Of a stretch of 64,000 bases of DNA, positions 45,100 to 45,130 are shown piece after piece. A program made the position numbers and the translations under genes. Below the pieces are notes generated by a model, which saw nothing but the letters and a program-made list of their open reading frames with translations, had not been told where the DNA came from and ran no database searches. Origin of the DNA: an uncultured Alphaproteobacteria bacterium (GTDB taxonomy: Bacteria; Pseudomonadota; Alphaproteobacteria; RF32; CAG-239); assembly GCA_944393235.1 (NCBI GenBank), contig CALXZJ010000004.1, positions 4,162 to 68,161 on the forward strand, in the 5' to 3' direction. Every line of letters starts with the position of its first letter. The stretch's first letter is position 1.

Positions 45100-45130
45100 A
45101 CACACACACACACACACACACACACACACA
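45100..45130. repeat. (AC)15 dinucleotide microsatellite upstream of the GT4-GT2-GT11 operon.
   Basis: Uninterrupted acacac... 30-31 bp visible directly; located 85 bp upstream of ATG 45215, between two hairpins (44950-44978 and 45162-45195). Confidence 0.95.

What the first reader, a model, noticed from the sequence alone, without database searches (positions are those of the whole stretch)
45100..45130. (AC)15 microsatellite between two hairpins, 85 bp upstream of a GT4-GT2-fucosyltransferase operon
A perfect 30-bp dinucleotide repeat is rare in bacterial intergenic DNA and is a classical slipped-strand phase-variation substrate. It lies just upstream of three translationally coupled glycosyltransferase genes, including a GT11 alpha-1,2-fucosyltransferase, which are likely to decorate LPS or a surface glycan. 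Hairpin 45162-45195 lies between the repeat and the RBS. Repeat number could therefore modulate promoter geometry or a leader structure, giving ON/OFF switching of surface fucosylation.
Basis: partly seen in the sequence, partly recalled or inferred. Interest (0 to 1): 0.65.

Follow-up and report, generated by a model that had tools for sequence, protein, structure and literature searches.

The report
Repeat-driven leader-ORF switch for glycosyltransferases
A hypermutable (AC)n repeat lies inside a short leader reading frame just before a terminator hairpin and a three-gene glycosyltransferase/fucosyltransferase operon, so repeat number probably switches surface glycosylation on and off in an uncultured bacterium, by a mechanism proven so far only for Streptococcus gallolyticus pili.

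Summary
A perfect (AC)15A tract lies at 45100-45130, 84 nt upstream of a GT4-GT2-GT11 operon, and none is expected by chance.

Across 22 independent metagenome contigs of the same species the tract has 7 to 22 units. Nine loci with no SNP over 1,040 nt of GT4 carry seven different repeat numbers, so it is a true hypermutable contingency tract.

It does not sit in a promoter. A conserved promoter-like block, an AAGGA ribosome-binding site and an ATG (45036) lie upstream, and the repeat is inside a leader ORF. After the tract, two frames stop at once (TAA 45133, TGA 45140). The third runs through a terminator-like hairpin (45159-45192) and ends at a TGA overlapping the GT4 ATG.

In a relative (74% GT4 identity) the hairpin and the separate GT4 start are absent, and that third frame continues into GT4.

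This is the architecture of the S. gallolyticus pil1/pil3 attenuation-type phase switch. The most likely mechanism is that repeat number modulo 3 decides whether ribosomes disrupt the terminator.

The polymorphism and anatomy are shown; the transcription start, termination and ON/OFF assignment are inferred. Verdict: a new member of a known but rarely documented kind, of moderate interest.

The parts
44950..44975 (+). Intrinsic-terminator-like hairpin ending the aroA/META-domain transcription unit. It marks the upstream boundary of the switch module.
   Evidence: 11 pairs, 6 GC, T-rich tail.: -15.5 kcal/mol, tail score 3.48. Conserved in all related loci.
44981..45015 (+). Conserved promoter-like block: TTTAAA-TTGACA (44987-44992), then TAGTAT (45005-45010) / TTTCAT (45010-45015). 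It is the predicted promoter of the leader-GT transcript, with a TSS predicted at about 45017-45023.
   Evidence: Sequence. Conserved across lineages with 100/91/74/63% GT4 identity, while the leader-ORF interior diverges. Not reported by the strict consensus scan. The TSS has not been mapped.
45025..45029 (+). Shine-Dalgarno AAGGA of the leader ORF, 6 nt before ATG 45036.
   Evidence: Same type as the META and GT4 RBSs. 27 of 35 long ORFs in the window have such a motif. Invariant in all lineages.
45036..45218 (+). Leader ORF, 60 aa in this allele: MCYVSKNIFYLNPNALKVSEIY(TH)5LNTDKQKFKKSPKDFRLLGFCRTKGKNP. It contains the repeat, crosses the hairpin and ends at a TGA that overlaps the GT4 ATG (ATGA).
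   Evidence: There are 22 codons before the tract, with no indel and no stop in four diverged lineages. Gene callers called it in L012, L084 and L085.
45100..45130 (+). (AC)15A hypermutable tract, encoding (Thr-His)n in the leader frame.
   Evidence: n = 7, 12, 13, 15, 16, 17, 20 or 22 in 22 loci of the same species. Seven different n occur on a background with no SNP over 1,040 nt.
45133..45142 (+). Stop codons that close the two alternative frames right after the tract: TAA 45133-45135 (frame a) and TGA 45140-45142 (frame b). They lie 27 and 20 nt before the core stem.
   Evidence: ATT TAA is conserved in all lineages; the frame-b TGA is conserved in the lineages that keep the hairpin. L016 has its own frame-b stop (TAA) a few codons further on.
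45159..45197 (+). Premature-terminator-like hairpin (extended stem 45159-45192, core GCCCAAAAGAC/GTCTTTTGGGC 45163-45188) plus the U-rich tail TTTTGTCGT (45189-45197). On the - strand it is also followed by a T7 run.
   Evidence: core -17.3 kcal/mol, tail score 4.49, both better than the META terminator. Conserved in the 91% and 63% lineages with one compensatory A-U to U-A change.
45202..45206 (+). Shine-Dalgarno AAGGA of GT4. It is not sequestered in the predicted fold.
45215..46357 (+). GT4-family glycosyltransferase, first gene of the controlled operon.
   Evidence: The in-frame stop TAA at 45200-45202 excludes a longer N-terminus.
46361..47353 (+). GT2-family glycosyltransferase.
47338..48165 (+). 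GT11-family glycosyltransferase, a putative alpha-1,2-fucosyltransferase. The likely true start is 47356, giving 269 aa.
   Evidence: E = 1e-37. HIRRGDY motif. Called as 269 aa in most related contigs.

Best explanation
The (AC)n tract is a slipped-strand contingency repeat inside a short leader ORF at the 5' end of the GT4-GT2-GT11 mRNA.

Proposed mechanism. Transcription starts at the conserved promoter-like block just after the META terminator. Ribosomes initiate at ATG 45036, which has its own AAGGA site. The repeat number (n modulo 3) then sets the frame in which they leave the tract.
- In two frames they stop immediately, at TAA 45133 or TGA 45140, which are 20-27 nt short of the hairpin core. 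The hairpin then forms and, with its U-rich tail, terminates most transcripts. This is OFF or low.
- In the third frame (n divisible by 3, as in this window, n = 15) the ribosome translates through the hairpin while it is being made. This prevents termination. The ribosome ends at a TGA overlapping the GT4 ATG, which could add translational coupling. This is ON.

The output would be stochastic, heritable and reversible switching of a surface glycan modification that includes an alpha-1,2-fucose.

Shown here: the tract, its hypermutability in natural populations, the ORF/stop/hairpin geometry, and its conservation.

Inferred: the transcription start, translation of the leader, terminator activity, which frame is ON, and the glycan target.
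For: 1. Hypermutability. n = 7 to 22 in 22 loci. Nine loci with no SNP over 1,040 nt of GT4 carry n = 12, 13, 15, 15, 15, 16, 17, 20 and 22. Two contigs break inside the tract.

2. Leader ORF. The RBS and ATG are invariant in four lineages. There are 22 codons before the tract with many substitutions but no indel or stop. The RBS is of the type this genome uses.

3. Frame geometry. Two frames stop 20-27 nt before the stem. The third ends at the ATGA in the window species, and at a TAG within the 3' arm in the 63% lineage.

4. Hairpin. Its energy (-17.3 vs -15.5 kcal/mol) and U-tail score (4.49 vs 3.48) are both better than those of the genuine gene-end terminator 190 nt upstream. Only 22 nt separate it from the GT4 ATG, so the operon's transcript must pass through it.

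5. Relative L016 (74%). It has no hairpin and no separate GT4 start codon. The same third frame runs from the leader through (AC)11 into GT4. Ribosomes must therefore read through the tract there, and frame c is the productive one.

6. The 63% lineage. An allele with an interrupted, stabilised tract, (AC)4AT(AC)7A, sits in frame c in three separate samples. A second allele, (AC)9, is also in frame c.

7. Strains that deleted the operon keep the leader but have only 4-5 units, one of them with a point mutation.

8. Experimental precedent with the same parts. In S. gallolyticus pil1/pil3, a leader stop at least 28 nt upstream of the terminator gives low expression. A stop immediately upstream of, within or beyond the hairpin gives high expression (PMC3894217).
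Against: There is no expression data of any kind, and the TSS is only predicted. The best -10 candidates are imperfect, and the strict promoter scan found nothing.

15 of the 22 assembled alleles are in frame a and only 4 in frame c. Most populations would therefore be OFF, or the ON assignment is wrong.

The common A4 haplotype has one extra A after the tract. It closes frame c at a TAA 5 nt before the core stem, so the ATGA coupling is not universal. By the pil1 precedent, a stop that close could still disrupt the hairpin.

GT4 has its own unsequestered RBS, so any transcript that passes the hairpin is translatable in every frame.

Covariation support for the hairpin is a single compensatory pair and is not significant.

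One strain (L075) has replaced the repeat, the hairpin and the GT4 start with unrelated sequence, so the switch is dispensable.

The repeat counts come from low-coverage short-read assemblies.
Confidence: 0.55

Rival explanations
1. The tract acts by its length rather than by reading frame, within the transcribed 5' leader or the DNA. Repeat number would tune expression gradually, through leader RNA folding or processing, spacing between leader elements, an unstructured CA-rich ribosome standby or enhancer segment, or Z-DNA-prone (AC)n affecting local supercoiling.
For: SSRs in transcribed 5' UTRs can act through RNA structure and RNase III, as in H. influenzae hmw1A (PMC12721329). The sequences flanking the tract can pair (TTTAAAAGTGT with ACACATTTAAA, pair I5) and loop the repeat out in the predicted fold. 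Repeat numbers span a wide range (7-22) with no obvious preference for one residue class modulo 3 among A3 alleles.
Against: (AC)n has no partner strand in the leader, and the flank pairing is an AT-rich TTTAAA palindrome of low information content. A pure length model does not explain several features: the conserved RBS and ATG, the indel-free 22 codons, the paired immediate stops, or the third frame ending in or after the hairpin in two lineages and fusing to GT4 in a third.
Confidence: 0.15
2. The tract is a neutral relic. The ancestor had an intragenic 5' repeat, as L016 has today. After GT4 acquired its own RBS and ATG, the repeat lost its function but keeps slipping. The hairpin would be only a stabiliser, or a - strand terminator against antisense transcription from the convergent PPase/kinase gene.
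For: GT4 has an independent, accessible RBS. The A4 haplotype closes all three frames before the hairpin. L075 does without the repeat. The hairpin is an even better terminator on the - strand, with a T7 tail and score 5.64. GT11 and the convergent gene have no terminator between them.
Against: Perfect tracts of up to 22 units persist in many strains. The module, including the two immediate stops and the hairpin, is kept in lineages down to 63% GT4 identity. By parsimony the split form (window, 91% and 63% lineages) is ancestral and the fused form is derived. Where the operon was deleted the tract is only 4-5 units. A hairpin with a U-tail 22 nt before the start codon must affect any transcript coming from upstream.
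Confidence: 0.15
3. The repeat changes promoter geometry, either the spacing of -35/-10 or UP/activator elements, for a promoter that lies around or downstream of the tract.
For: Promoter-located SSRs are a classical mechanism (established knowledge: H. influenzae hif (TA)n, N. meningitidis porA/opc, nadA). AT-rich hexamers (TTTAAA, TAAAAA) follow the tract.
Against: The tract is 15-45 bp long, too long for a spacer. The scan found no promoter-like site in 44800-45400 (1.9 expected by chance). Only 28 nt lie between the tract and the hairpin, and 22 nt between the hairpin and the ATG. In L016 the sequence after the tract is coding and differs, yet the tract and the upstream block are conserved. 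The conserved promoter-like block lies about 95 nt upstream of the tract.
Confidence: 0.07

Closest known systems
Streptococcus gallolyticus pil1 and pil3 phase switch: GCAGA repeats in a leader-peptide ORF plus a premature terminator (Danne et al. 2014, PMC3894217)
   Same: The order of parts is the same: promoter, RBS and ATG, short leader ORF containing an SSR whose unit is not a multiple of 3, stop codons either well upstream of or within/after a stem-loop terminator, and then the first structural gene of a surface-structure operon. Repeat number also differs between isolates. Hairpin energies are in the same range: -18.7 and -28.2 kcal/mol there, -17.3 (core) to -21.6 (extended stem) here.
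   Different: The unit is a dinucleotide rather than a pentanucleotide. The host is an uncultured bacterium binned as Alphaproteobacteria rather than a Gram-positive coccus. The target is a glycosyltransferase/fucosyltransferase operon rather than sortase pili. In one allele class the long frame ends exactly at an ATGA overlap with the first gene, which allows translational coupling. A sister lineage has the leader fused to the enzyme. Nothing here has been tested experimentally.
Classical intragenic SSR phase variation of LOS/LPS glycosyltransferases (established knowledge: H. influenzae lic2A/lgtC tetranucleotides, Neisseria lgtA/C/G poly-G, H. pylori futA/B/C poly-C; CT dinucleotide repeats in H. 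pylori outer-membrane protein genes, papers listed)
   Same: A hypermutable tract near the 5' end sets the reading frame. The targets are host-mimicking glycan decorations, including fucosylation. Relative L016 fits this class exactly: the tract lies within the GT4 ORF, with two ATGs in different frames upstream, as at lic1A.
   Different: In the window species the tract is not in the enzyme's ORF. GT4 has its own RBS and ATG, with an in-frame TAA 12 nt upstream. The frame must therefore act indirectly, through the hairpin.
Ribosome-dependent suppression of an attenuator by an ORF that reads into the terminator: E. coli pyrBI leader and rph-pyrE (established knowledge; the rph-1 frameshift stops translation early and lowers pyrE expression)
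   Same: Whether a ribosome reaches the terminator hairpin decides readthrough. A frameshift in the upstream ORF that causes an early stop lowers expression of the downstream gene.
   Different: Those systems sense UTP through RNA polymerase pausing, and rph-1 is a fixed laboratory mutation. Here the frameshift would be reversible and programmed by an SSR.
H. influenzae hmw1A 5'-UTR heptamer repeats (PMC12721329)
   Same: The SSR lies between the promoter and the gene, is transcribed as part of the leader, and acts after transcription initiation.
   Different: The hmw repeats themselves form one arm of a long RNA hairpin that is cut by RNase III, and expression is graded with repeat number. 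(AC)n cannot pair with anything in this leader and lies within an ORF.

Membership tests
Leader-peptide SSR / attenuation phase switch (S. gallolyticus pil1 type) | The SSR lies inside a short ORF that has its own RBS and start codon, upstream of the regulated operon. | tested here: met
   AAGGA at 45025-29, ATG at 45036, tract at 45100-45130 within ORF 45036-45218. Conserved in four lineages.
Leader-peptide SSR / attenuation phase switch (S. gallolyticus pil1 type) | The repeat unit is not a multiple of three, so gain or loss of units shifts the leader frame. | tested here: met
   The unit is 2 nt. Observed alleles fall in all three frames.
Leader-peptide SSR / attenuation phase switch (S. 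gallolyticus pil1 type) | A stem-loop transcription terminator lies between the leader stop codons and the first structural gene. | tested here: inconclusive
   The hairpin at 45159-45192 with tail TTTTGTCGT is predicted to be as good as or better than a genuine gene-end terminator of the same genome. Termination itself cannot be measured here.
Leader-peptide SSR / attenuation phase switch (S. gallolyticus pil1 type) | Alternative frames place the leader stop either well upstream of the hairpin, or immediately before, within or beyond it. | tested here: met
   Frames a and b stop 27 and 20 nt before the core stem. Frame c stops beyond the hairpin in A3 alleles, 5 nt before it in A4 alleles, and in the 3' arm in the 63% lineage.
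Leader-peptide SSR / attenuation phase switch (S. gallolyticus pil1 type) | Repeat number varies between and within populations. | tested here: met
   Between populations: n = 7 to 22, with seven values on an identical 1,040-nt background. Within-sample heterogeneity was not testable because no reads are available; two contigs break inside the tract.
Leader-peptide SSR / attenuation phase switch (S. gallolyticus pil1 type) | The TSS lies upstream of the leader, and operon transcription rises in a way that depends on translation when the long leader is made. | not testable with these tools
   Only a conserved promoter-like block at 44981-45015 is available. The organism is uncultured.
Intragenic (coding-region) SSR phase variation | The tract lies within the ORF of the regulated protein, so the frame decides directly whether the full-length product is made. 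| tested here: not met
   In the window species an in-frame TAA (45200-45202) separates the leader from GT4, and GT4 has its own RBS and ATG. The feature is met only in relative L016.
Promoter-spacer / upstream-element SSR phase variation | The tract lies between the -35 and -10 hexamers, or between an activator/UP site and the core promoter, upstream of the TSS. | tested here: not met
   No promoter-like hexamer pair flanks or follows the tract. The tract is 15-45 bp long. The conserved promoter-like block, RBS and ATG all lie upstream of it. The TSS has not been mapped, so this is not formally excluded.
GT11 alpha-1,2-fucosyltransferase (third gene) | A match to the GT11 family profile and the HxRRGD motif. 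| tested here: met
   PF01531 with E = 1e-37 over 268 of 298 profile positions. SMHIRRGDY is present. No NCBIfam or PDB sequence match. Donor and acceptor specificity were not tested.
Known cis-regulatory RNA families (riboswitches, amino-acid leaders) | A match to an Rfam covariance model. | tested here: not met
   There is no hit at gathering threshold in the window other than a tRNA. A permissive scan of 44900-45300 gave only sub-threshold chance-level hits, all at least 16 bits below the gathering score.

The most novel reading that the evidence does not exclude
The locus may be a two-level contingency switch. A dinucleotide repeat in a leader ORF would control both ribosome-mediated antitermination and, through the ATGA overlap, translational re-initiation on the first glycosyltransferase. 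It would be the first such switch outside S. gallolyticus and the first for a glycan operon. The related lineages (split leader plus hairpin, leader fused to GT4, stabilised interrupted tract, operon deleted, switch replaced) would capture the evolutionary interconversion between attenuator-type and intragenic phase-variation switches in an uncultured host-associated bacterium. The same genome also carries a family of homopolymer-tract pilin promoters.
Probability: 0.35. Interest if true: 0.6.

Novelty: new member of a known kind. Interest (0 to 1): 0.5.

Why it matters
SSR phase variation of surface glycans is well known in a few cultured pathogens. The leader-peptide/terminator version has been demonstrated only for two pilus loci of one Gram-positive species.

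Finding the same architecture in a different phylum, with a different repeat unit and a different class of target, would suggest that it is a general and recurrently evolved design, one that genome scans for 'intergenic' SSRs misclassify as promoter repeats. Here it sits in front of a fucosyltransferase-containing operon in an uncultured, apparently anaerobic, host-associated bacterium.

It also gives a concrete, testable handle on stochastic glycan variation (possible host H-antigen-like mimicry, or phage or immune evasion) in an organism known only from metagenomes. The series of natural alleles (ON-frame, OFF-frame, locked, fused, deleted) can be read directly from public sequencing reads.

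Tried and rejected
1. Promoter search around the tract. The sigma-70 consensus scan found 0 sites in 44800-45400, so promoter-spacer models were set aside.

2. Rfam, at gathering and at permissive thresholds. No known leader or riboswitch was found.

3. Scan of JGI metagenome contigs with the clade-conserved anchor CGGAAATCTACACACACA. It gave 44 hits, none with the leader context. They are unrelated (AC)n loci.

4. Reference-genome scan with GT4. It returned only one MAG, labelled 'uncultured Alphaproteobacteria bacterium BRZ_LA bin12'. No finer taxonomy was obtained, and cluster look-ups carried no names.

5. Literature search for the sample and assembly accessions. Nothing was found, so the host or habitat of the samples remains unknown to me.

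6. More distant GT4 orthologs, at 55% identity or less (L022-L029). They sit in different gene contexts and have no SSR upstream, so the module is confined to the aroA-META-GT clade.

7. Hairpin covariation. Only one compensatory pair was found, which is not significant.

8. My first hand count suggested that the extra A of the A4 haplotype restored the long frame. The explicit translation showed the opposite: it closes that frame.

9. RBS occlusion of GT4 by the hairpin. It is not predicted, so a purely translational masking model was dropped.

10. The - strand ORF 45098-45412 over the tract (a (CV)n tail). It is antisense to the 5' end of GT4 and was treated as spurious.

11. PDB and NCBIfam searches for GT11 gave no hits.

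Full report
**1. The observation**

The window has a perfect (AC)15A tract at 45100-45130. It is the only dinucleotide repeat of 6 or more units in 64 kb. A 20-nt AC probe is expected 0.00 times in dinucleotide-preserving shuffles.

The tract lies in a 291-nt gap between two features:
- Upstream is a META-domain gene (44561-44923), preceded by aroA, and its terminator hairpin at 44950-44975.
- Downstream are three tightly packed glycosyltransferase genes: GT4 (45215-46357), GT2 (46361-47353) and GT11 (47338/47356-48165). The GT11 protein carries the HIRRGDY motif typical of alpha-1,2-fucosyltransferases.

A second hairpin with a perfect 15-bp stem lies at 45159-45192, between the tract and the GT4 ribosome-binding site.

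**2. The tract is hypermutable in nature**

Exact-protein look-ups recovered the same locus from many independent metagenome assemblies. In 22 loci of the same species the tract has these lengths:

| Repeat units (n) | Loci |
|---|---|
| 7 | 7 |
| 12 | 1 |
| 13 | 6 |
| 15 | 3 |
| 16 | 1 |
| 17 | 2 |
| 20 | 1 |
| 22 | 1 |

The flanks are almost identical across these loci. Nine loci with no SNP over the first 1,040 nt of GT4 carry n = 12, 13, 15, 15, 15, 16, 17, 20 and 22. The tract therefore changes far faster than point substitutions accumulate. Two contigs begin inside the tract.

The tract is also present, with different lengths, at the same position in lineages whose GT4 is 91%, 74% and 63% identical. 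Orthologs at 55% identity or less lie in other contexts and have no repeat.

**3. Anatomy: the repeat is inside a leader ORF, not a promoter**

No sigma-70-like promoter was found around or after the tract.

Immediately after the META terminator there is a block conserved across all four lineages. It contains TTTAAATTGACA, then TAGTATTTCAT, then GAAGGAAATATC-ATG. This amounts to a promoter-like element followed by an AAGGA Shine-Dalgarno site and a start codon at 45036. The AAGGA type of site is used by 27 of 35 long ORFs in the window.

From this ATG, 22 codons run to the tract in every lineage. They show many substitutions but no indel and no stop. The tract is read as (Thr-His)n.

After the tract the three frames behave very differently:
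- Frame a stops at once, at ATT-TAA (45133).
- Frame b stops at TGA 45140.
- Frame c stays open through the hairpin. It ends at TGA 45216-45218, which overlaps the GT4 ATG as ATGA.

The window allele (n = 15) is in frame c and encodes a 60-aa leader. In the 63% lineage frames a and b stop at the same places, and frame c ends at a TAG inside the 3' arm of the hairpin.

**4. The hairpin looks like a premature terminator**

| Feature | Leader hairpin (core) | META gene-end terminator |
|---|---|---|
| Folding energy | -17.3 kcal/mol | -15.5 kcal/mol |
| Tail | TTTTGTCGT | TTGATATTT |
| Tail score | 4.49 | 3.48 |

On these measures the leader hairpin is at least as good as the genuine terminator of the same genome. 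The extended 15-bp hairpin folds at -21.6 kcal/mol. The 105-nt segment around it has an MFE of -24.5 kcal/mol, z = -3.6 against shuffles.

Only 22 nt separate the hairpin from the GT4 ATG. Any transcript of the operon must therefore be made through it. The GT4 ribosome-binding site is not sequestered in the predicted fold, so control is more likely at termination than at initiation of translation.

The hairpin is conserved in the 91% and 63% lineages with one compensatory A-U to U-A change. This is too little variation for statistical support. On the - strand the hairpin is followed by a T7 run. It could therefore also stop antisense transcription coming from the convergent downstream gene. 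That role is not exclusive of the terminator role.

**5. Natural variants that bear on function**

- *L016 (74% lineage).* The hairpin and the separate GT4 start are absent. Frame c continues from the leader through (AC)11 directly into the GT4 domain, and no alternative start codon exists. There the repeat is a classical intragenic switch. Ribosomes must read through the tract, and frame c is the productive frame.
- *63% lineage.* Three samples share an allele whose tract is interrupted by a C-to-T change and sits in frame c. A fourth locus, (AC)9, is also in frame c. This is consistent with a stabilised ON state.
- *GT-less strains.* Eight strains with the same META protein lack the operon. 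A 2.9-kb deletion, from just after the tract (about 45144) to 48027, leaves the promoter block, the leader start, only 4-5 AC units (one allele with a point mutation) and the last 138 nt of GT11.
- *L075.* One strain has replaced the tract, the hairpin, the RBS and the first nine GT4 codons with 108 nt of unrelated sequence.
- *A4 haplotype.* A frequent haplotype has one extra A after the tract. It closes frame c at a TAA 5 nt before the core stem. All 13 such loci have n = 7 or 13, both in frame a.

**6. Mechanism**

The parts and their order match the S. gallolyticus pil1/pil3 switch. There, GCAGA repeats inside a leader-peptide ORF decide whether the leader stop lies at least 28 nt upstream of a premature terminator (low expression). 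Otherwise the stop lies immediately upstream of, within or beyond the terminator (high expression), because the translating ribosome prevents the hairpin from forming (PMC3894217).

I therefore propose the same mechanism here. Repeat number modulo 3 sets the leader frame. Frames a and b release the ribosome 20-27 nt before the stem, and the terminator forms (OFF or low). Frame c carries the ribosome through the stem, or to its foot (ON). In one allele class there is possible added translational coupling at the ATGA overlap.

The E. coli pyrBI leader and the rph-1/pyrE polarity effect (established knowledge) are the classical demonstrations that a ribosome reaching an attenuator suppresses it.

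Shown here:
- the tract and its hypermutability;
- the ORF, stop-codon and hairpin geometry;
- conservation of that geometry across lineages;
- the natural fused, deleted and replaced alleles.

Inferred:
- the TSS;
- translation of the leader;
- terminator activity;
- which frame is ON;
- the nature of the glycan.

Confidence in this specific mechanism is about 0.55. Confidence that the tract is a real contingency repeat affecting this operon is higher.

**7. Points against, and rivals**

Most assembled alleles are in frame a (15 of 22), and only four are in frame c. The A4 haplotype removes the ATGA overlap. GT4 can be translated on its own. The switch is dispensable in L075. All repeat counts come from short-read assemblies, some at 3-9x coverage. 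However, the same n recurs in independent samples of the same haplotype.

The rivals are:
- a length-dependent, frame-independent effect in the leader RNA or DNA, as at hmw1A in H. influenzae (PMC12721329);
- a neutral relic of a formerly intragenic repeat;

The first two cannot be excluded without expression data. The third fits the anatomy poorly.

**8. Comparison with what is known, and novelty**

SSR phase variation of LOS/LPS glycosyltransferases and fucosyltransferases is textbook knowledge for Haemophilus, Neisseria, Campylobacter and Helicobacter, and this locus belongs to that broad kind. The particular design, an SSR in a leader ORF followed by a terminator, turned up in my full-text searches only for the two S. 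gallolyticus pilus loci.

This locus would be a new member of that rare sub-type. It differs in phylum (a MAG labelled Alphaproteobacteria), in repeat unit (a dinucleotide) and in target (a glycan operon). A sister lineage shows the fused, intragenic form.

No Rfam family matches.

**9. Verdict**

The likely mechanism is a leader-ORF frame/attenuator switch rather than promoter geometry. Interest is moderate (0.5): a well-supported natural example of a rarely documented switch type in an uncultured organism, but not a new principle.

**10. Side observation**

The same window holds five copies of a conserved upstream module of about 110 nt. Each contains an A10-A12 tract between TTGCAA-like and TAGAAT-like hexamers. 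The five tracts, on + strand coordinates, lie at 14017, 30211, 38195, 59747 and 61453. They sit in front of paralogous genes with prepilin-type N-termini, MRE(C/N)GRSMVEMLGVLAIIGVLS.

One other strain has TTG-A13 where the window has TTGC-A11. These look like further, promoter-type contingency loci in the same genome.

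Noticed in passing
window 14017-14028, 30211-30222, 38195-38205, 59747-59757, 61453-61462 (all read on the - strand): There are five copies of a conserved upstream module of about 110 nt: GTAAGTTATCCCCACCAGACTCTTTAAAATTGC-A(10-12)-CGGTTTAGAATGACG...GGGAG..ATG. The homopolymer tract lies between a TTGCAA-like and a TAGAAT-like hexamer. Four precede paralogous genes with prepilin-type N-termini (MRECGRSMVEMLGVLAIIGVLSVGAIAGYSKAM; 38-43% identity in the two pairs compared); these have variable C-terminal parts and no Pfam hit. 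The fifth looks frameshifted. Another strain (L094) has TTG-A13 where the window has TTGC-A11. These are candidate promoter-spacer phase-variable pilin genes.
   Followed up: partly
L074, L076, L077, L079-L083 (corresponds to window ~45144-48027): The whole GT4-GT2-GT11 operon shows a presence/absence polymorphism within the species. A 2.9-kb deletion starts right after the repeat and leaves the last 138 nt of GT11. The leader with a short (AC)4-5 tract is retained.
   Followed up: yes
L075 2012-2119 (replaces window 45072-45241): In one strain the repeat, hairpin, RBS and first nine GT4 codons are replaced by 108 nt of unrelated sequence. This gives a 392-aa GT4 with a new N-terminus and no obvious RBS. 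The origin of the insert is unknown.
   Followed up: partly
window 45141-45150 (GATAAACAAAAA vs GATAAAACAAAAA in L001 and others): A one-base A3/A4 indel just after the repeat closes the long leader frame. It occurs on GT4 backgrounds identical to A3 alleles. A4 alleles show only n = 7 or 13, while A3 alleles show six different n among nine loci. The reason for this difference in diversity is unexplained.
   Followed up: partly
window 45036-45048 (ATGTGTTATGTAA): A second ATG lies 7 nt after the leader start, in another frame. It is followed directly by TAA (a start-stop) in the window species and in the 63% lineage. In L016 it is open (ATGCAA), and there it is the frame currently fused to GT4. 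This is reminiscent of the multiple-ATG arrangement at H. influenzae lic1A.
   Followed up: partly
L016 2523-3662 and 7401-9314; L074, L079, L081, L083 ~3300 onward: In the 74% lineage an extra 379-aa gene with no Pfam hit sits between META and the leader module, and a type II Cas9 gene follows the GT operon. In several GT-less strains a Cas9 gene follows the PPase/AAA_33 gene. The region is a hotspot of gene-content change.
   Followed up: no
L022 2697-2712: A T16 homopolymer sits near or in a 247/251-aa gene of a larger glycosyltransferase cluster, in the lineage with a 55% GT4 ortholog. It is absent from the otherwise identical L023-L025. This is possibly another contingency tract or an assembly artefact.
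   Followed up: no
L027 1610-2846 vs L028 1581-2846: The AnmK (anhydro-MurNAc kinase) gene is split into two ORFs in one contig and intact in another contig of the same lineage. This is a frameshift or an assembly error.
   Followed up: no
window 39075-39248, 14623-14742, 33822-33978, 56391-56462: There are in-frame tandem repeats in large proteins. A 66-nt unit is repeated 2.6 times at 98% identity in a 1317-aa protein with no Pfam hit. A Gly-Ser-rich (GGTTCT)n array lies in a 929-aa protein. A 63-nt unit is repeated 2.5 times in a 722-aa protein. A (GAACAT)n His-rich stretch lies in the LarC-like nickel-insertion protein.
   Followed up: no
window 1745-5968: A low-GC segment (31% against about 42% elsewhere) encodes a 1164-aa fusion of GT2, a TupA-like ATP-grasp domain and a second GT2 domain. 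It is probably a horizontally acquired glycan-synthesis gene.
   Followed up: no
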